Source: a virus (lineage: Duplodnaviria; Heunggongvirae; Uroviricota; Caudoviricetes). From it: a stretch of DNA of 13,592 nt. How positions within the stretch are numbered: position 1 is the first letter of the stretch; each line of letters opens with the position of its first letter. The stretch covers positions 1 to 13,592 of IMG/VR virus record IMGVR_UViG_2778261231_000014, one strand, 5' to 3'. Positions 1-7,368 of the stretch are shown piece by piece. A program made the translations under genes and the position numbers. Below the pieces are notes generated by a model. The model was not told where the DNA came from and searched no databases. It saw nothing but the letters and a program-made list of their open reading frames with translations.

Positions 1-291
1 ATGACGAAATGCGCTATCTTGCAATTTATCTGCGCTATCGAGCTTCGCTTCCAGTTCAGCGATTCGCTTCTCTGCGGTTTCCAACTCATCCAGCAGCGCC
101 AGCACGGTGGCGGGGTTGGCTGCGGCGATAAATGCAGCATCACGCGCTTCGTTTTCACTGAATACCATGGCTATTTGCTCATGGTTCACGCCGTCAGTGG
201 AGTAAATCTCATCGTCGAACTCAACAGCCCACCGGCCTTTCGTCGCCTTCTCCGCCGCTTCACGCAGAGCCTGGTAATTAATCTCGCTCAC
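1..291 (-). CDS. Ead/Ea22-like phage protein, partial (first 97 codons; 3' end runs off the window start)
   Basis: GTG start at 291-289 with AGGAGG about 6 nt upstream; 4-nt overlap with the stop of the upstream gene (288-290). Translation begins VSEINYQALREAAEKATKGRWAVEFDD..., which I recall as typical of the Ead/Ea22 family. The + strand ORF 1..492 is its antisense. Confidence 0.45.
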   Translation of the reverse strand, partial: MSEINYQALREAAEKATKGRWAVEFDDEIYSTDGVNHEQIAMVFSENEARDAAFIAAANPATVLALLDELETAEKRIAELEAKLDSADKLQDSAFRH

Positions 292-878
292 TGGTTGCCT
301 CCTTTGCGAAGCTGGGCGGCGATATCTTCGAGAACGCCATCAGAGAATGAGCGGTCAAAATCGCCTTCCGGCGCATTAGCCATAAACTCAGTAGAGGTAA
401 GAATCATCCTGGCAATATCCGCGGCGTTCTTTGCAGTATCATCAATAAAACCAGCTTCCCAGGCAGCCAGCATTCTGTTCGCCACAAAGTAAGCTCCCTC
501 CTTGCGTGCTTCAGTCTTCACTTCAGCCAGGAAAGCGTCGGTGGCTGGGGTTTTGTTATCTGACTCCAGCCACTGGTTGTAGTAATAATCGAACATGCCA
601 GTAGGATAACCACATCCGCTGTGCACGTGGTCTTTCATAGCAGAACCACACATGCAGTAGTCATTGTCAGTATTGCTAATGATGTCGATAAGTTGCTGTG
701 TCCGTTGCTTCAACATCGCATTCTCCGCAGCCAGCGCCGCGCATCTGGCTTTAAGCTCTGATAACGGGCCGGAAATCTTTTTGGTGGTCATGCCGATCAT
801 GGTGGCAATGCGAGCACTATTCAGGCCCGGGTTATTACGCAGGGCTGCAAGAATCTGCCCACGAATTGTTATGGTCAT
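288..878 (-). CDS. Hypothetical phage protein (196 aa) with a possible N-terminal winged-helix segment and a Cys/His cluster
   Basis: ATG at 878-876 preceded by AAGGGGG; ATGA start/stop overlap with the DnaC-like gene implies translational coupling. Contains CMCGSAMKDHVHSGC. Family not recognised with certainty. Confidence 0.6.
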   Translation of the reverse strand: MTITIRGQILAALRNNPGLNSARIATMIGMTTKKISGPLSELKARCAALAAENAMLKQRTQQLIDIISNTDNDYCMCGSAMKDHVHSGCGYPTGMFDYYYNQWLESDNKTPATDAFLAEVKTEARKEGAYFVANRMLAAWEAGFIDDTAKNAADIARMILTSTEFMANAPEGDFDRSFSDGVLEDIAAQLRKGGNQ

Positions 879-1731: not shown

Positions 1732-2601
1732 TCAGTCCCTCGCCCATGATGGGATTTCAGTCTGGCCGTAGTCTTTGCCAGCGAAGTTCTCGGATACGCG
1801 AGACTGATTGCGGGTAGGCTGCTTGGCGCCCTTAGGCTCAAACAATCCCTGCCAGCCGTTAGCGATGCTCTGGTTTATAATTTCTTCAGGCTGATATCCG
1901 CTGCACTTGCAACGCTCGAGCAGGTTGATGGCCTGGGTAACCGTCTGCTGAGACTTGATCGGTTTCTTCAGGTCGCGACGATAATCGACCCATGACTTCC
2001 AGACTGAAACTGACAGCCATTCAGGAAGGTCAACACCAGCCGGATCGAACGAAGCATGTTTGGGGGATTTAGGGGGTTTATTAATATTGTCTTTATTGTC
2101 TTTTGTAATAGTGTCTTTTGTGTGTCCCCATTTTGGTGACAGGGTTGTCACTGTTTTGGTGACACTTTTTGTCACCACCGTAGGGACACTGTCACTACCA
2201 TGGTGACAGTCACTACTATGGTGACATTTTGGCGCAGGCTTAGTGCCCGGAATTACCCACTCACTCAGGTTTTTGTTGGGCCCGATCAGCATGCCGTCGG
2301 ACACCAAAACATTCATCGCAATGAGTTCGTTTTTGGCAGCGTTAACCTTCTGGCGAGGTAGCCTGGTCAGCTCAGAAAGTTGTGAGTCTGCTATGCGGTC
2401 CATCTTCTTGTTGAACCCATAGGTTTTGCGGCAAACAGCATGAGCTACCTTGGCCTGATTTTTGGTCAGGTTCGCGCCGATAAGCTCCTCATACAACTCG
2501 TTTGCCAGACGGGTGTACCCATCGTCTGTATCGGCCACGCGTTGCTCCTGTATTCCCGAAACTACAGCGGGAAAGTTGAGAATTTCTGCGGTGTTTGACA
2601 T
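1732..2601 (-). CDS. Replication initiator protein, lambda O-like N-terminal domain
   Basis: N-terminus MSNTAEILNF...ADTDDGYTRLAN...LTKNQAKV...RKTYGFNKKMDRIADSQLSELTRLP...GPNKNLSEW closely follows the lambda O N-terminal domain as I remember it. ATG 2601-2599 with GGGAG RBS; the track ORF starts at an upstream in-frame GTG at 2628. Iterons lie inside the central linker. Confidence 0.85.
   Translation of the reverse strand: MSNTAEILNFPAVVSGIQEQRVADTDDGYTRLANELYEELIGANLTKNQAKVAHAVCRKTYGFNKKMDRIADSQLSELTRLPRQKVNAAKNELIAMNVLVSDGMLIGPNKNLSEWVIPGTKPAPKCHHSSDCHHGSDSVPTVVTKSVTKTVTTLSPKWGHTKDTITKDNKDNINKPPKSPKHASFDPAGVDLPEWLSVSVWKSWVDYRRDLKKPIKSQQTVTQAINLLERCKCSGYQPEEIINQSIANGWQGLFEPKGAKQPTRNQSRVSENFAGKDYGQTEIPSWARD
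2075..2230. repeat. ori-like element inside the O-like gene: four to five roughly 22-bp iterons plus an adjacent AT-rich tract
   Basis: Repeated units TTTTGGTGACAGGGTTGTCACTG / TTTTGGTGACACTTTTTGTCACC / ...GGGACACTGTCACTA / CCATGGTGACAGTCACTACT / ATGGTGACATTTT at 2131-2230; AT-rich tract with repeated ATTGTCTTT at about 2075-2130. Same layout as lambda ori inside O. Confidence 0.6.
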
Positions 2602-2604
2602 ACT
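2576..2604 (+). promoter_or_regulatory. Putative promoter for a short + strand (antisense) transcript: TTGAGA-17-CATACT
   Basis: -35-like TTGAGA at 2576-2581 and -10-like CATACT at 2599-2604 with 17-bp spacer. Weak match; proposed mainly because a strong + strand terminator lies about 70 nt downstream. Confidence 0.25.
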
Positions 2605-2640
2605 TACTCCCGTTACTTGCCGTAACACAGTGTGATAAGG

Positions 2641-2676
2641 GCCTTTGAAGTTACCGCTTCAAGGGCTTTTTCTTTT
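2641..2676 (+). terminator. Rho-independent terminator on the + strand, in the gap between the O-like and YdaT-like genes
   Basis: 10-bp stem GCCTTTGAAG / CTTCAAGGGC (one G-U pair), 6-nt loop, then TTTTTCTTTT. The U-tract is 3' only on the + strand, opposite to the local genes. Confidence 0.6.
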
Positions 2677-2686
2677 CTTGTGCCTC

Positions 2687-3229
2687 TCATATAACCCCCA
2701 ACATTGACGTGACCATCGTCATCAGCGGCCCTACCTGCTCCGGCATGAGGCGGAACAGCGACGCTATACCCTCGCTTACCTCTTTCAGCTTCTGATGCTC
2801 TGGAGCGCCCAGAAGCACTGCCTGCTTAGCTTCGGCACACTCTTTCATCGCGGATGCGATCAGCGACATCGTGTCGTTCTGTGGTGCAAGGCGGTTGCGA
2901 AATTCCAGTGGAAGTACCGCCATGATTGCGGGCGTCAGCTGGCGCACGTTCTCGCGGTACTGCTCAGAGTCGAAACGGTTATCCAGAAAGCGAAAAAGTT
3001 TCTGGCGCGCCCTGCTGATGTCTTCCGGGAAGCTGATGGCGGTACCGCCCTGCTCCCGGTATTCGTTGATGATCAGTGCCGAAACGACGTCCTGATTGTC
3101 CAGCGCCGAAGACCATGCCCGGACCGCATCGCGGATCTTTTCGTGGTCTGGCGCCGCCTTAGGTTGAGCGCGGTTTATCATCGCTCCCGGGTGTATTCCG
3201 GTATTGTGTTGATACGCAAGTGAATGCAT
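2687..3229 (-). CDS. YdaT-like regulatory protein (CII-position analog of Rac-type prophages)
   Basis: Sits immediately downstream of the cro-like gene. Motifs EYREQGG and LTPAIMAVLPLEFRNRL resemble Rac YdaT as I recall it. Start could be ATG 3229 or internal ATG 3181. Confidence 0.6.
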   Translation of the reverse strand: MHSLAYQHNTGIHPGAMINRAQPKAAPDHEKIRDAVRAWSSALDNQDVVSALIINEYREQGGTAISFPEDISRARQKLFRFLDNRFDSEQYRENVRQLTPAIMAVLPLEFRNRLAPQNDTMSLIASAMKECAEAKQAVLLGAPEHQKLKEVSEGIASLFRLMPEQVGPLMTMVTSMLGVI

Positions 3230-3258
3230 TGCTTTCCCTTTCGTGGTTAGGGCCGCCG

Positions 3259-3480
3259 TTAGGCGGCAAAGATACCTGGATATAGAACTTCGCGAGGAAG
3301 CCCCGTCACTTCTTCGTACTTACGCATTTTTGTTACTGGAAGGCTGCCACCTCGCTTTTTAAGCATATTGATGGCCTGTGGCGTTACGCCGACCTTTTCA
3401 GCAAGCACCTTTTGAGAGCCGCCCACTGCATTAATGGCTTTCTCAAGCGGGGTGCTTGCGTTGGATTCTTTGTTGATCAT
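3259..3480 (-). CDS. Cro/YdaS-like small HTH regulator (73 aa)
   Basis: HTH-like segment QKVLAEKVGVTPQAINMLKK; GGAG RBS 7 nt upstream of ATG 3480; divergent from the repressor gene across an operator region. Confidence 0.7.
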   Translation of the reverse strand: MINKESNASTPLEKAINAVGGSQKVLAEKVGVTPQAINMLKKRGGSLPVTKMRKYEEVTGLPREVLYPGIFAA

Positions 3481-3597
3481 GTTTTGCTCCGCTCATGTGT
3501 AATCAACACCATGTTAATTCATGATGTGGATTAAATCAACATTATGGTGATGGAAAAAATCCACATGTTGTTTACCATGCATGGAGCGGAGGGTTTT
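3481..3597. promoter_or_regulatory. Immunity operator/promoter region (OR-like) between the divergent cro-like and cI-like genes
   Basis: Four copies of AATC(A/C)ACA or its complement at 3501-3508, 3525-3532 (TGTGGATT), 3534-3541, 3558-3565. 3525-3541 forms an imperfect 17-bp palindrome TGTGGATTAAATCAACA. A leftward TTGATT-17-TAACAT promoter candidate lies on the - strand. Confidence 0.6.
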
Positions 3598-4308
3598 ATG
3601 AGTAGCATTTCTGAAAGAATTAAATTTTTACTGGCAAGGGAAGGCTTGAAGCAGCGGGATTTGGCTGAGGCTTTGTCGACTAGCCCACAGACCGTCAACA
3701 ACTGGATAAAAAGAGACGCGTTAAGTCGTGAGGCGGCGCAACAAATATCTGAAAAATTCGGTTATTCTCTTGACTGGTTATTAAATGGAGAGGGTTCTCC
3801 AAAGAAGGATCTGGAGAGCAACATCCCGCCAGAGTCTGAGTGGGGAGTTGTTGATGCATGGGATAAAGACACCCCGCTTCCTGTTGATGAGGTTGAAGTG
3901 CCATTTCTTAAGGATATTGAATTTGCGTGTGGTGATGGTCGAGTTCAGTGCGAAGACCACAATGGATTTAAGCTGAGATTCTCCAAGGCAACGCTCAGAA
4001 GAGTGGGTGCAAATAGTGATGGTTCTGGAGTGCTTTGCTTTCCCGCTTCTGGTGACAGCATGGAGCCCGTTATTCCTGACGGCGCAACGGTAGCAGTCGA
4101 TACAGGCAACAAGCGGATTATTGACGGCGAACTCTATGCTATTAACCAGGGCGATTTAAAGCGCATAAAGCAGCTTTATCGAAAGCCTGGTGGGAAGCTA
4201 TTAATACGAAGCATCAATCGCGATTATGACGATGAAGAGGCTGATGAGGCAGATGTCGAGATAATCGGTTTTGTGTTCTGGTACTCGGTATTGCGATATC
4301 GCCGATAA
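3598..4308 (+). CDS. CI-like phage repressor (N-terminal XRE-type HTH plus C-terminal S24/LexA-like peptidase)
   Basis: HTH RIKFLLAREGLKQRDLAEALSTSPQTVNNWIK; S24 signature GDSMEP and a downstream Lys (LKRIK). Start ATG 3598 with GGAGGG RBS; in-frame ATGs from 3544 exist but overlap the operators. Confidence 0.85.
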   Translation: MSSISERIKFLLAREGLKQRDLAEALSTSPQTVNNWIKRDALSREAAQQISEKFGYSLDWLLNGEGSPKKDLESNIPPESEWGVVDAWDKDTPLPVDEVEVPFLKDIEFACGDGRVQCEDHNGFKLRFSKATLRRVGANSDGSGVLCFPASGDSMEPVIPDGATVAVDTGNKRIIDGELYAINQGDLKRIKQLYRKPGGKLLIRSINRDYDDEEADEADVEIIGFVFWYSVLRYRR

Positions 4309-4314
4309 TTTTAG

Positions 4315-4425
4315 TGGCCTGAAGAGACGTTTGGGTGATAAGAGAATATCTGATAGTAGGCGTGGTTACTTTGCTCTCGGTTGTTGCGATCGTGCTTATG
4401 GTGGCCTGATGAGACGTTTGGGTGA
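4315..4425. repeat. Two copies of a 25-bp direct repeat GTGGCCTGA(A/T)GAGACGTTTGGGTGAT, 86 bp apart, between the cI-like and KilA-N genes
   Basis: Copy 1 at 4315-4339, copy 2 at 4401-4425, one mismatch. Read directly from the sequence. Confidence 0.7.
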
Positions 4426-4457
4426 TTATTTTATTTTTCACAGCAATAGGATGATTT

Positions 4458-5219
4458 ATGACACAGTTTCAACTTGCATTAATCGCCAGAGAAGTTGATG
4501 GAGAAGTCATCCATCTTCGCACCAAAGACGGTTACATCAATGCCACCGCAATGTGCAAGTCTGCTGGGAAGCTACTTGCTGACTATACACGACTAAAAAC
4601 AACGCAAGATTTTTTTGATGAATTATCCCGCGATATGGGGATTCCCATATCGGAATTAATTCAATCATTTAAAGGCGGAAGAGCAGAGAATCAAGGGACT
4701 TGGGTTCATCCAGACATCGCAATTAACTTAGCTCAGTGGCTATCTCCAAAATTTGCAGTGCAAGTATCGAGATGGGTGCGTGAGTGGATGTCAGGCGAAA
4801 GAGCGCCTGCCGAACTCCCTATCCACCTTAAGCGGTATATGACAAACCGAGGCAGGGTTCCTCATACGCACTTTTCTATGCTTAATGAACTGACGTTTAA
4901 CCTGGTTGCGCCACTTGAGCAGGCAGGATATACGCTGCCAGAAAAAATGGTCCCTGATATTTCAGAAGGTAGGGTTTTCTCGCAATGGCTTCGTGAAAAC
5001 CGGGGTGTTGAGCCGAAGACGTTCCCAACATATAACCATGAGTACCCAGATGGCCGGACATTCCCGGTACGTCTATACCCAAACGAATATCTTGCAGATT
5101 TCAAACAACACTTCAACGAAGTGTGGCTGCCTCAGTACGCTCCTAAATATTTTGCAGAACGAGACCAAAGGGCATTGACGTTGATTGAGAAAATCATGTT
5201 GCCTGACCTTGATTCCTAA
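4458..5219 (+). CDS. KilA-N domain protein (253 aa) with an unassigned C-terminal domain
   Basis: N-terminal approximately 100 aa (INATAMCKSAGKLLADYTRLKTTQDFF...VHPDIAINLAQWLSPKFAVQVSRWV) fit the KilA-N/APSES-like fold. AGGA RBS; lower GC than the flanks. Confidence 0.65.
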   Translation: MTQFQLALIAREVDGEVIHLRTKDGYINATAMCKSAGKLLADYTRLKTTQDFFDELSRDMGIPISELIQSFKGGRAENQGTWVHPDIAINLAQWLSPKFAVQVSRWVREWMSGERAPAELPIHLKRYMTNRGRVPHTHFSMLNELTFNLVAPLEQAGYTLPEKMVPDISEGRVFSQWLRENRGVEPKTFPTYNHEYPDGRTFPVRLYPNEYLADFKQHFNEVWLPQYAPKYFAERDQRALTLIEKIMLPDLDS

Positions 5220-5227
5220 ATGTTATA

Positions 5228-5250
5228 CCCGGCCACCAAGCCGGGGTTTT
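5228..5250 (+). terminator. Putative intrinsic terminator after the KilA-N gene
   Basis: Stem CCCGGC / GCCGGG, loop CACCAA, followed by GTTTT. Sits between the convergent KilA-N and 65-aa genes. Confidence 0.4.
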
Positions 5251-5446
5251 ACTGCCCTTTCCGCACTATCTCAGCTGCATCCCTGTTCACACCCTTACCT
5301 ATCACGTTTCCCGTTTCCTTCCGGTACCGTTCCAGCTTGTCGATGATGTTTTGCTGGGTCATAGGTAAATCTGCCAGTGACAACTCCATGACCGCCCGCC
5401 CCATGGCGTGAACCATCATGTTCACTCTTTCTTCATCCAAGCCCAT
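5249..5446 (-). CDS. Small hypothetical protein (65 aa), divergent from the early-left promoter
   Basis: AAGGAG RBS 8 nt upstream of ATG 5446-5444; possible extended -10 TGATATGCT on the - strand upstream. No family recognised with confidence. Confidence 0.55.
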   Translation of the reverse strand: MGLDEERVNMMVHAMGRAVMELSLADLPMTQQNIIDKLERYRKETGNVIGKGVNRDAAEIVRKGQ

Positions 5447-5501
5447 TACCCACTCCTTTTTGATGTTTTTTTCAGCATATCACTTATGCCACCAAAAAAT
5501 A

Positions 5502-5576
5502 AATCAACATAAAAATCAACAAGAAACGATTAAATCAACAAAATAAATCCACAAGGTGTTGACCTATAAATCCACA
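5502..5576. promoter_or_regulatory. Second operator-like cluster (OL-like): five direct copies of AATC(A/C)ACA
   Basis: AATCAACA at 5502, 5514, 5533; AATCCACA at 5546, 5569. Same motif family as the cI/cro intergenic region; the last copy lies between the -35 and -10 of the rightward promoter. Confidence 0.55.
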
Positions 5577-5587
5577 TGATGTTTAAT
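5559..5587 (+). promoter_or_regulatory. Putative early-left (pL-like) sigma70 promoter: TTGACC-17-TTTAAT
   Basis: TTGACC at 5559-5564, TTTAAT at 5582-5587, 17-bp spacer containing AAATCCACATGATG. Points toward the recombination-gene operon. Confidence 0.45.
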
Positions 5588-5633
5588 TATCCCATCGAAA
5601 CGAAACATCGACAGCTGAGCGAAGTTAGCCAGC

Positions 5634-6003: not shown

Positions 6004-6300
6004 ATGATCGACGACATCAAGCGCATCGACTCAATGATAAATGCGCTTCGCAATATGAAACAGGACATCAAGCGTCAGCAGAAACTAAGTGAAATAAACA
6101 GTTTAGACCTGTCGCCGAAGCAAGCTCAAAAGCGCAATGCCGATGCTGACTGGATTGCGATGGAACAGATTAAGCGTCGGCATGAGCTGCACGCTCTGTC
6201 TGTTGAGCTTGGGTTCGCTGAGCGCCGGGAAAGTTATGCTCCATTTGAATTAACTGACGGGTGGCACCGATTCGACCACAAGCCGCGCGAACCTCAATAG
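6004..6300 (+). CDS. Hypothetical early protein (98 aa), first gene of the rightward early operon
   Basis: RBS AGGGTAAGGGG before ATG 6004; followed immediately by an intrinsic terminator. No family recognised. Confidence 0.55.
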   Translation: MIDDIKRIDSMINALRNMKQDIKRQQKLSEINSLDLSPKQAQKRNADADWIAMEQIKRRHELHALSVELGFAERRESYAPFELTDGWHRFDHKPREPQ

Positions 6301-6940: not shown

Positions 6941-7228
6941 ATGGAAATCGTAAAAATCGAAATGAACCTGAAAGCAGTGAATAAAGAAGTGGCTGCATTC
7001 AACTGCGAGAAGAAAGTATCAGGCGTTATTCACTCAACTACAAACGGTGAAACAACAGTCATTCTCGACGGTGGCTATGTGCTTGGCAAGTTTGATTGCC
7101 CGCACTGCGCCATTGAGGAGATCAGCTTGCTGGTACTCAAAATCAGCGATAGCGATTACGCCGGCTGGGGAACCTACCGTACATACAAGCAAGATTTTAT
7201 GAATGAGGCGATCGTAGCCGTCAGTTAA
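6941..7228 (+). CDS. Hypothetical protein (95 aa) immediately upstream of the recE-like gene (racC position)
   Basis: GGAG RBS 5 nt upstream of ATG 6941; a hairpin GCCCAC-CGAA-GTGGGC without a U-tract follows at 7235-7250. Confidence 0.55.
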   Translation: MEIVKIEMNLKAVNKEVAAFNCEKKVSGVIHSTTNGETTVILDGGYVLGKFDCPHCAIEEISLLVLKISDSDYAGWGTYRTYKQDFMNEAIVAVS

Positions 7229-7368
7229 GCGAAAGCCCACCGAAGTGGGCCCGCCATGTCCGGCCTCACCGACCAAAGTTACACCGGAAACAACATTAAA
7301 ACCAAAGTTAACCCAATGGGCGCTATCAATGGTCCGGGGATTCTAACACCCAAAAATGAGGATCTCAC

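What the first reader, a model, noticed from the sequence alone, without database searches (positions are those of the whole stretch)
4458..5219. KilA-N-domain gene downstream of the repressor, in the slot where lambda carries rexAB
The gene follows the CI-like repressor on the same strand and ends in a terminator-like hairpin. It has lower GC than neighbouring genes, consistent with a horizontally acquired moron. Genes at this position are often expressed in the lysogen and mediate exclusion or defence. Only the N-terminal domain is recognisable; the roughly 150-aa C-terminal half has no family I can name.
Basis: inference. Interest (0 to 1): 0.6.

Follow-up and report, generated by a model that had tools for sequence, protein, structure and literature searches.

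The report
BstA-family defence gene after cI

Summary
ORF 4458-5219 (+, 253 aa) starts 149 nt after a phi80-type CI repressor on the same strand. It has a canonical KilA-N domain (residues 13-112, E 8e-27) and is followed by a GC hairpin with a T-run at 5228-5250.

The "unnameable" C-terminal half is the BstA-like C-terminal domain (Pfam PF26567 BstA_C):
- PADLOC BstA model, E 1.6e-20, C-domain only.
- PHROG 6287 "BstA abortive infection", full length, E 2e-82.
- Profile-profile comparison with BstA proper: 97.9% probability over both domains.

BstA (Owen et al. 2021) is a prophage abortive-infection protein encoded directly downstream of cI. It blocks DNA replication of superinfecting phages and is silenced for its own phage by a DNA element, aba.

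The same 253-aa protein follows several distinct S24 repressors in ten prophages. In phage PhiR5_2 it follows a true lambda cI, which is literally the rexAB slot. Near-identical backbones (phi80, HK225, E. coli G3/10) carry unrelated cargo there.

This branch has a canonical KilA-N domain, is about 50 aa shorter than BstA, and is about 29% identical to BTP1 BstA over the C-domain only. It has not been tested experimentally, no aba element could be recognised, and the C-domain has no solved structural relative.

Verdict: new member of a known kind; modest interest.

The parts
3598..4308 (+). phi80-type CI repressor (HTH + S24 peptidase). It presumably supplies the pRM/pRE transcript that reads into the target gene. 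The longest ORF starts at 3544.
   Evidence: Pfam Peptidase_S24 E 1.7e-19 and Phage_CI_repr E 2.4e-10. The 711-bp cI is annotated in phi80, DH10B and G3/10. pRM and the operators are annotated in phi80.
4309..4426 (+). Slot leader that belongs to the backbone, not to the cargo. It holds two direct repeats (4309-4339 and 4396-4426) that read as pseudo 3' ends of a lambda-type cI (TGG CCT GAA GAG ACG TTT GGG TGA = WPEETFG*; second copy WPDETFG*). It is the left boundary of the exchangeable cargo.
   Evidence: Repeats found. The same segment occurs in phi80 and G3/10 with different cargo and in L086-L095. In PhiR5_2 the motif is the real end of lambda cI. It is absent from homologue loci not next to a cI gene (L006, L085).
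4427..4457 (+). Cargo-specific 31-nt leader with the ribosome-binding site AGGA (4447-4450). Together with the first ~34 nt of the CDS, it is the position where the aba self-immunity element lies in BTP1.
   Evidence: Conserved with the gene in PhiR5_2, L005 and L086-L095. The aba position is taken from PMC8585504. No aba-like sequence was recognised.
4458..5219 (+). BstA-family gene, 253 aa: KilA-N domain + linker + BstA_C domain.
4494..4793 (+). N-terminal KilA-N (APSES-like) DNA-binding domain, residues 13-112.
   Evidence: Pfam E 8.1e-27. The AF2 model has pLDDT about 90-97 in this region. The best Foldseek hits are the Mbp1, PCG2 and Bqt4 APSES domains, all marginal (best E 1.1e-3).
4809..5216 (+). 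C-terminal BstA-like domain (PF26567 BstA_C), residues 118-253. It is the presumed effector domain, mainly helical with one small beta-hairpin.
5228..5250 (+). Intrinsic-terminator-like hairpin with a T-run. It ends the cI-cargo transcript and forms the right boundary of the exchangeable cargo.
   Evidence: The stem is conserved behind different cargos in phi80 and G3/10 and in L086-L095, L002 and L005.
5249..5446 (-). Convergent 65-aa ORF (phrog_3975, function unknown). It belongs to the phi80 backbone and is not a partner of the target gene.
   Evidence: 97% identical to the phi80/DH10B copy; the 67-aa ORF at this place in other backgrounds is unrelated.
5559..5587 (+). pL-type promoter (TTGACC, 17-nt spacer, TTTAAT) flanked by AAATCAACA/AAATCCACA operator repeats. 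It marks the far edge of the immunity slot. The N homologue follows at 6004-6300.
   Evidence: Sequence. The region is near-identical to phi80, where pL, three CI operators, nutL and N (98 aa) are annotated.

Best explanation
The gene is a single-gene abortive-infection module of the BstA family, carried as an exchangeable cargo cassette in the immunity region of a phi80/HK225-like lambdoid prophage.

**Shown here (sequence level)**
- Two-domain architecture: a KilA-N DNA-binding domain plus BstA_C.
- Homology to BstA over both domains.
- Position directly downstream of cI on the same strand, with no intervening promoter or terminator and a terminator behind it.
- Cassette-like spread between different immunity types.

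**Inferred from BstA work (Owen et al. 2021)**
- The gene is transcribed with cI from pRM in the lysogen.
- The protein is present constitutively.
- When a foreign phage infects, the protein goes to the replicating phage DNA, presumably through the KilA-N domain.
- The C-domain then blocks phage DNA replication, so the infected cell dies without releasing progeny.

**Inferred, and weakest**
- The prophage escapes its own protein on induction through a cognate DNA element (aba) carried inside the cassette, most likely around the start of the gene.
For: **Family membership**
- PHROG 6287 "BstA abortive infection system, replication inhibitor": residues 1-252 against profile positions 6-301 of 304, E 2e-82.
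- PADLOC BstA HMM: E 1.6e-20 on residues 120-237.
- tblastn and BLASTP against BTP1 BstA: 29% identity over residues 133-251, E 7e-15.
- hhalign of a 36-sequence alignment of this branch against 30 BstA-proper sequences: probability 97.9%, E 3.9e-13, 225 columns covering both domains.
- Precomputed Pfam gives PF04383 + PF26567 (BstA_C) for this protein and PF26567 for BstA proper.

**Structure**
- AF2 gives two confident domains joined by a flexible linker. This matches the two-domain prediction made for BstA.
- The N-domain's best structural matches are APSES DNA-binding domains, at marginal scores.

**Genomic position**
- The gene follows cI in the window, in ten prophages with different repressors, in phage PhiR5_2, in Proteus phage vB_BPM-V3 and in E. 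coli DY612.
- This is the architecture reported for BstA.
- No promoter or terminator lies between cI and the gene, and a terminator follows it.

**Experimental basis for the family**
- BstA from BTP1, K. pneumoniae and E. coli confers abortive-infection defence, blocks phage DNA replication and colocalises with phage DNA, with a cognate aba element (PMC8585504).
Against: - No experiment exists for this branch. The tested BstA proteins share 42-48% identity with BTP1 BstA, whereas this one shares about 29%, and only in the C-domain.
- The N-domain is a canonical KilA-N, while BstA proper has only a remote KilA-N-like domain. DNA or target recognition may therefore differ.
- The PADLOC BstA profile is covered only over 149-271 of 292 positions.
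- No aba-like element was found. There is no pair of CCCGCC repeats, no unusual conservation at the 5' end of the CDS, and the only conspicuous repeat upstream belongs to the backbone.
- The branch is 53-62% identical across several phyla and often lies outside recognisable prophages, for example next to aceK in Stenotrophomonas and beside IS1595-type transposases. That is unusual for a fast-evolving defence gene.
- In phage vB_EcoS-613R10 an 86% homologue is not next to cI.
Confidence: 0.7

Rival explanations
1. It is a regulatory or antirepressor-type protein of the KilA-N/Bro-N/Rha/ORF6N class. The N-domain binds phage or host DNA, the C-domain mediates protein contacts, and the protein tunes the lysis-lysogeny decision or transcription rather than aborting foreign infections.
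For: - The C-domain occurs behind the interchangeable N-terminal modules KilA-N, Bro-N, Phage_pRha and ORF6N, which are typical of phage regulators and antirepressors.
- Many phage records annotate KilA-N proteins as transcriptional regulators.
- The C-domain gave only non-significant structural hits to proteins labelled antirepressor or regulatory.
Against: - An antirepressor would not be expected on the repressor's own lysogenic transcript.
- The closest characterised relatives are abortive-infection proteins, and BstA does not affect lysogenic development (section heading).
- There is no match to the antirepressor C-domain family (ANT/KilAC) in Pfam.
Confidence: 0.1
2. It is a general mobile-element or host-associated DNA-binding factor whose primary role is not phage defence. 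Examples would be control of replication of the carrying element, or an enzyme acting on DNA. On this reading the prophage copy is one of many contexts.
For: - 53-62% identity across Proteobacteria, Verrucomicrobiota, Bacteroidota, Myxococcota, Armatimonadota and CPR bacteria.
- No conserved neighbour.
- Copies next to core genes and transposases.
- A fusion to a PriCT_2/DUF3987 primase-helicase and another to a DUF559 nuclease.
- Many invariant polar residues in the C-domain: R126, N130, E144, D167, S169, H194 and D198.
Against: - Owen et al. also found 21% of BstA homologues outside prophages, yet the tested members defend.
- Single-gene defence modules are commonly spread by transposons and islands.
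- In Enterobacteriaceae the gene is tied to the cI slot.
Confidence: 0.12
3. It is a host-killing or addiction function like P1 KilA: toxic on expression, and stabilising the prophage rather than excluding other phages.
For: - The N-domain is the one named after P1 KilA.
- Abortive-infection proteins are often toxic when overexpressed.
Against: - The gene sits on the constitutive lysogenic transcript without any recognisable antidote gene. The neighbouring 65-aa ORF belongs to the backbone and is not linked to the gene.
- No P1 record appears among the 13 phage records that match the C-domain.
Confidence: 0.05

Closest known systems
BstA (ST313-td) of Salmonella prophage BTP1 and its tested homologues BstA-Kp and BstA-Ec (Owen et al. 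2021, PMC8585504); Pfam PF26567 BstA_C; PHROG 6287; PADLOC/DefenseFinder BstA
   Same: - A single protein with an N-terminal KilA-N-type domain and the BstA C-terminal domain.
- Encoded immediately downstream of the prophage repressor on the same strand and followed by a terminator.
- Spread among lambdoid prophages.
- Homology is significant over both domains.
   Different: - 253 aa against about 300 aa.
- Canonical Pfam KilA-N domain (E 8e-27) in place of a remote KilA-N-like domain.
- About 29% identity to BTP1 BstA, confined to the C-domain in pairwise comparison.
- Covers only 42% of the PADLOC profile.
- RefSeq names it only "KilA-N domain-containing protein".
- No experimental data and no recognisable aba element.
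- Much more conserved across phyla.
Lambda RexAB
   Same: - Occupies the same place in the genome, between cI and pL/N, on the cI transcript. In PhiR5_2 the gene literally replaces rexAB behind a lambda cI.
- Both are prophage abortive-infection functions.
   Different: - No sequence or architectural relation.
- RexAB is a two-protein sensor and membrane-channel system, whereas this is one soluble DNA-binding-type protein.
P1 KilA and other KilA-N/Bro-N/Rha/ORF6N phage regulators and antirepressors (domain network of Iyer, Koonin and Aravind 2002; cited from my own knowledge and)
   Same: - Shares the KilA-N DNA-binding domain.
- The BstA_C domain takes part in the same kind of N-domain shuffling.
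   Different: - The C-terminal domain is different, with no ANT/KilAC match.
- The gene sits on the lysogenic transcript rather than the lytic one.
phi80 gene 40A (DUF7946), the G3/10 DUF6932 pair and the HK225 HK97-gp48/49-like genes
   Same: Alternative cargos at exactly the same slot of the same backbone, between the same left (pseudo cI end) and right (terminator) flanks.
   Different: The proteins are unrelated and their functions are unknown.

Membership tests
BstA abortive-infection family | BstA-like C-terminal domain (PF26567 / BstA HMMs) | tested here: met
   - PADLOC BstA E 1.6e-20 on residues 120-237.
- PHROG 6287 E 2e-82.
- Precomputed PF26567 on this exact protein.
- BLASTP against BTP1 BstA E 7e-15.
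- hhalign probability 97.9%.
- The local Pfam copy lacks the model, so it gave no hit.
BstA abortive-infection family | N-terminal KilA-N(-like) putative DNA-binding domain, with two domains separated by a linker | tested here: met
   - Pfam KilA-N E 8.1e-27.
- The AF2 model has two domains with low confidence at residues 113-120.
- The best structural matches are APSES-type folds, at marginal scores.
- The domain is more canonical than in BstA proper.
BstA abortive-infection family | Encoded directly downstream of a prophage repressor on the same strand (typical of the family, not universal) | tested here: met
   Seen in the window, in 10 of 10 places holding the identical protein, and in PhiR5_2, Proteus phage vB_BPM-V3 and E. 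coli DY612. Exception: the 86% homologue in vB_EcoS-613R10.
BstA abortive-infection family | [quoted passage not shown] In BTP1 it is 63 bp spanning -29 to +34, with terminal CCCGCC direct repeats. | tested here: inconclusive
   - No pair of CCCGCC repeats anywhere in the window.
- No repeat brackets the start codon.
- No excess conservation of the leader or the 5' end of the CDS among relatives.
- aba elements are homologue-specific, so absence of similarity does not exclude one.
BstA abortive-infection family | Confers population-level defence by abortive infection and blocks phage DNA replication | not testable with these tools
   This needs phage challenge and DNA-replication assays. It has been demonstrated only for BstA from BTP1, K. 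pneumoniae and E. coli.
BstA abortive-infection family | Expressed in the lysogen (shares the repressor promoter) | not testable with these tools
   The only indirect support is that no promoter or terminator consensus lies between cI and the gene. The pRM position is inferred from the phi80 annotation.
Phage antirepressor (Ant/KilAC) proteins | ANT/KilAC C-terminal domain | tested here: not met
   Pfam scans of the whole protein and of the C-terminal half gave no such hit.
Lambda RexAB | Homology to RexA or RexB; a two-gene system | tested here: not met
   No Rex hit in Pfam, PADLOC or PHROGs. The cargo is a single gene.

The most novel reading that the evidence does not exclude
The canonical-KilA-N/BstA_C branch may be functionally distinct from BstA proper. 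Four observations point that way:
- It is 53-62% identical across at least six phyla.
- It often lies outside prophages.
- Its C-domain carries an invariant R/N/E/D/S/H/D constellation on a fold with no solved relative.
- It shows no aba-type element.

It could therefore be an enzyme-like effector aimed at a universally conserved replication component, and it may use a different solution to self-immunity, or none. If so, it would be a separate defence subtype, or a non-defence function, that current defence finders do not label.
Probability: 0.2. Interest if true: 0.55.

Novelty: new member of a known kind. Interest (0 to 1): 0.3.

Why it matters
**Annotation**
- The gene should be annotated as BstA-family (KilA-N + BstA_C) rather than "KilA-N domain-containing protein".
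- The lysogen is predicted to resist some phages through abortive infection. That is relevant to phage-therapy host range and to prophage competition.

**The branch**
- It is common. The exact protein is indexed in 1,559 blocks of the collection and occurs in 22 of 5,426 complete E. coli genomes.
- It is probably under-called by defence finders, because the PADLOC profile is covered only in the C-domain.

**The locus**
- It is a clean example of cargo exchange in the cI-pL slot. The left flank is a pseudo 3' end of cI and the right flank is a terminator.
- This gives a simple handle for mining other cargos from the same slot (40A/DUF7946, the DUF6932 pair, HK97 gp48/49-like).

**Limits**
- None of this changes the known picture of BstA.
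- The open questions about mechanism and aba remain open for this branch as well.

Tried and rejected
- **Local Pfam and NCBIfam on the C-terminal half.** No hit, because the local Pfam copy lacks PF26567. The domain name came from precomputed annotations.
- **The 31-nt direct repeat upstream as a candidate aba element.** Rejected. It is a pseudo 3' end of a lambda-type cI, it is present with unrelated cargos (phi80, G3/10), and it is absent from homologues not next to cI.
- **The CTGATGAG in the second repeat as a hammerhead ribozyme core.** No Rfam hit anywhere near it.
- **BTP1-type aba (a pair of CCCGCC repeats).** Absent.
- **Reduced synonymous change at the 5' end of the CDS.** Not seen.
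- **A conserved partner gene.** None found among 80 loci. The 65-aa convergent ORF is backbone, not cassette, and is unrelated to the small ORF after BTP1 bstA.
- **More recent mechanistic papers on BstA.** None found in the library.
- **Whether Owen's 72-homologue table contains this branch.** Only suggestive. It includes short C-terminal-only hits such as one in Hafnia alvei, but no sequences were available for comparison.

Full report
**1. Setting**

The window is the early region of a phi80/HK225-like lambdoid prophage. From left to right it holds:
- A DnaC-like gene and an O-like replication gene (-).
- A YdaT-type CII analogue (-).
- A Cro analogue at 3259-3480 (-).
- CI at 3598-4308 (+).
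- The target gene at 4458-5219 (+).
- A 65-aa convergent ORF at 5249-5446 (-).
- A pL-type promoter with repeated operators near 5480-5590.
- A long leader, then the N homologue at 6004-6300 (+).
- recE, recT, xis and int.

The best-matching phage is HK225, at 97% identity over 67% of the window. The immunity region is about 95% identical to phi80, where pRM, pR, pL, the CI operators, nutL and N are annotated.

In this orientation the interval between cI and pL is the counterpart of the lambda rexAB interval.

**2. The observation**

The ORF is exactly as described: 253 aa, with an AGGA site 7 nt before the ATG.
- Pfam KilA-N matches residues 13-112 at E 8e-27.
- A 6-bp all-GC hairpin followed by GTTTTAC lies 9 nt after the stop codon.
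- No promoter-like or terminator-like site separates the gene from cI on the + strand.

GC content is 45.7%, against 51.2% for the window. That is the same as cI (46.7%), so composition marks the whole immunity module rather than this gene alone.

**3. What the C-terminal half is**

A tblastn search against phage genomes matched residues 133-251 to the BstA abortive-infection protein of Salmonella prophage BTP1 (BLASTP 29% identity, E 7e-15).

Further evidence:
- The PADLOC BstA model matches residues 120-237 (E 1.6e-20).
- PHROG 6287, annotated as BstA, matches the full length (E 2e-82).
- The large protein collection carries precomputed Pfam hits PF04383 + PF26567 for this protein and its relatives, and PF26567 alone for BstA proper. 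Sources name PF26567 "BstA-like C-terminal domain" / BstA_C.
- A profile-profile comparison of 36 members of this branch with 30 BstA-proper sequences gives 97.9% probability (E 3.9e-13) over 225 columns spanning both domains.

Motifs shared by the two branches in the C-domain include P-x3-FS-x3-E, VPDIS-x-G, H-x-YPD and YP-x6-F.

**4. Structure**

AlphaFold2 with the family alignment gives two confident domains (mean pLDDT 89.4) joined by a low-confidence linker at residues 113-120. The C-domain alone reaches pLDDT 94 and pTM 0.85.

The N-domain's best matches are the APSES DNA-binding domains of Mbp1, PCG2 and Bqt4. The scores are marginal (best E 1.1e-3), but the matches fit what is expected for a KilA-N domain.

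The C-domain has no solved relative:
- Foldseek against viral models found nothing significant.

The fold therefore gives no mechanistic hint, as is also the case for BstA.

**5. What is known about BstA**

All of the following comes from PMC8585504.
- BstA of BTP1 is encoded directly downstream of the cI-like repressor and is constitutively made in lysogens.
- It colocalises with infecting phage DNA, prevents phage DNA replication and causes abortive infection.
- Homologues from K. pneumoniae and E. coli (48% and 42% identical) do the same.
- 79% of 72 surveyed homologues are prophage-associated, often right after a repressor.
- Self-immunity is provided by aba, a 63-bp DNA element spanning -29 to +34 of bstA, whose terminal CCCGCC repeats are essential. 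Each homologue has its own cognate aba.

The authors themselves note the synteny with rexAB.

**6. The cassette and the slot**

The identical 253-aa protein (0-6 nucleotide differences in the CDS) was found in ten prophages. In every one it lies immediately after an S24 repressor. These repressors differ in length (219-255 aa) and Pfam profile, and are combined with different Cro/CII and replication modules.

In phage PhiR5_2 the gene (99.6% identical) starts 31 nt after a true lambda cI, which ends ...SQWPEETFG*. It also follows cI in Proteus phage vB_BPM-V3 and in E. coli DY612.

Conversely, phi80, E. coli G3/10 and HK225 share the window's backbone but carry other cargo between the same flanks:
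- phi80: gene 40A / DUF7946.
- G3/10: a DUF6932 gene plus a 310-aa gene.
- HK225: HK97 gp48/49-like genes.

The cargo here is 4427-5250.
- Its left boundary falls right after ...GACGTTTGGGTGA.
- Its right boundary is the terminator CCCGGCCACCnnGCCGGGTTTT.

**7. The upstream direct repeat**

The 31-nt repeat at 4309-4339 and 4396-4426 translates as WPEETFG* and WPDETFG*. It is therefore two pseudo 3' ends of a lambda-type cI placed after the real phi80-type cI stop codon.
- It is present whatever the cargo (phi80, G3/10, L086-L095).
- It is the genuine cI end in PhiR5_2.
- It is absent from homologues that are not next to a cI gene.

I read it as a recombination anchor or scar of cargo exchange, not as part of the defence module. 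Rfam finds no RNA family there.

**8. Search for an aba equivalent**

Nothing resembling the BTP1 aba element is present:
- There is no pair of CCCGCC repeats.
- No direct repeat brackets the start codon.
- The leader and the first 60 nt of the CDS are not more conserved than the rest of the gene among relatives.

aba elements are homologue-specific, so this result is inconclusive. If an element exists, it must lie within about -58..+790 relative to the ATG. That is the stretch shared with PhiR5_2, which is deposited as a phage with E. coli K-12 MG1655 as host.

**9. The wider family**

This branch has about 2,700 detectable relatives. It is 53-62% identical across Proteobacteria, Verrucomicrobiota, Bacteroidota, Myxococcota, Armatimonadota and CPR bacteria.

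There is no conserved neighbouring gene. Some copies lie beside IS1595-type or other transposases, and Stenotrophomonas carries one next to aceK.

An exhaustive search with the C-domain found 411 clusters at 50% identity. Most are 240-300-aa proteins with an N-terminal domain of about 110-150 aa. Sampled N-domains are KilA-N, Bro-N, Rha or ORF6N. Two fusions stand out:
- One to a PriCT_2/DUF3987 primase-helicase.
- One to a DUF559 nuclease.

Only 13 of 50,697 phage records encode the domain, and 22 of 5,426 complete E. coli genomes carry this cassette. In E. coli H6 the gene is annotated as two separate ORFs.

**10. Interpretation**

The most likely reading (confidence about 0.7) is a BstA-type abortive-infection moron co-transcribed with cI.
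- Family membership and genomic position are shown.
- Expression, the defence phenotype, the replication block and self-immunity are inferred from the characterised relatives.

The rivals are less likely:
- A regulatory or antirepressor role.
- A non-defence role, suggested by the unusually strong conservation and the non-prophage copies.
- A KilA-like killing or addiction function.

Only experiment can exclude them.

The neighbouring 65-aa ORF is not a partner. It is phi80 backbone and is replaced by an unrelated ORF elsewhere. It is also unrelated to the small ORF behind BTP1 bstA.

**11. Novelty and score**

The kind of system, its domain composition and its genomic position were described in 2021, and the C-domain now has a Pfam family. 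What is new:
- This particular branch is untested. It has a canonical KilA-N domain and is shorter. Pairwise comparison with BstA proper matches only the C-domain; the profile comparison aligns both domains.
- In Owen's table it is probably represented only by the "C-terminal-only" hits.
- RefSeq labels it merely as a KilA-N protein.

I rate it a new member of a known kind, with interest 0.3.

Noticed in passing
window 4309-4339 and 4396-4426: These two direct repeats are in-frame pseudo 3' ends of a lambda-type cI (WPEETFG*, WPDETFG*), placed right after the real phi80-type cI stop codon. The same pair flanks different cargos in phi80, G3/10 and ten other prophages. It looks like the left recombination anchor for cargo exchange; the terminator at 5228-5250 is the right anchor.
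   Followed up: yes
window 7230-7327 (-): Match to the Rfam isrB Hfq-binding sRNA (RF01386) at 38.2 bits, above the gathering score of 35, E 5.8e-4. It lies antisense in the gap between ORF 6941-7228 and recE.
   Followed up: no
window 4427-5250 compared with L003 (phi80/DH10B), L004 (E. coli G3/10) and L097 (HK225): The cI-pL slot of this backbone carries at least four unrelated cargos: this gene, phi80 40A/DUF7946, a DUF6932 gene plus a 310-aa gene, and HK97 gp48/49-like genes. The other three are uncharacterised candidates for lysogen-expressed functions.
   Followed up: partly
proteins P0282, P0316, P0369, P0280: The BstA_C domain is also found behind Bro-N, Rha and ORF6N domains. It occurs once at the end of a 1,230-aa PriCT_2 + DUF3987 primase-helicase + KilA-N protein, and once followed by a DUF559/Vsr-like nuclease domain.
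   Followed up: partly
loci L005-L084: The KilA-N/BstA_C branch is 53-62% identical across at least six phyla, including CPR bacteria. An IS1595-type transposase lies within two genes upstream in six loci (and downstream in a seventh), and Stenotrophomonas has a copy next to a 587-aa gene I take to be aceK. This conservation is unusual for a defence gene.
   Followed up: partly
L099 (E. coli H6) 2530-3291: In strain H6 (and, from the hit table, probably H5) the gene is annotated as two separate ORFs of 113 aa each, so it looks inactivated there.
   Followed up: no
window 5249-5446 (-): A convergent 65-aa ORF (phrog_3975, unknown function) sits between the cargo terminator and pL. It is conserved with the phi80 backbone. 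Other backbones have an unrelated 67-aa ORF at the same place, so a small antisense ORF there may be a general feature of the slot.
   Followed up: partly
window 288-878 (-): A 196-aa ORF downstream of the DnaC-like gene has a weak N-terminal match to the Ren-like exclusion protein PHROG (phrog_142, E 1e-4) and strong matches to PHROGs of unknown function.
   Followed up: no
window 4458-5219, annotation practice: The PADLOC BstA profile is matched only over positions 149-271 of 292, and RefSeq names the gene "KilA-N domain-containing protein". Automated defence-system finders therefore probably do not report this branch as BstA.
   Followed up: partly
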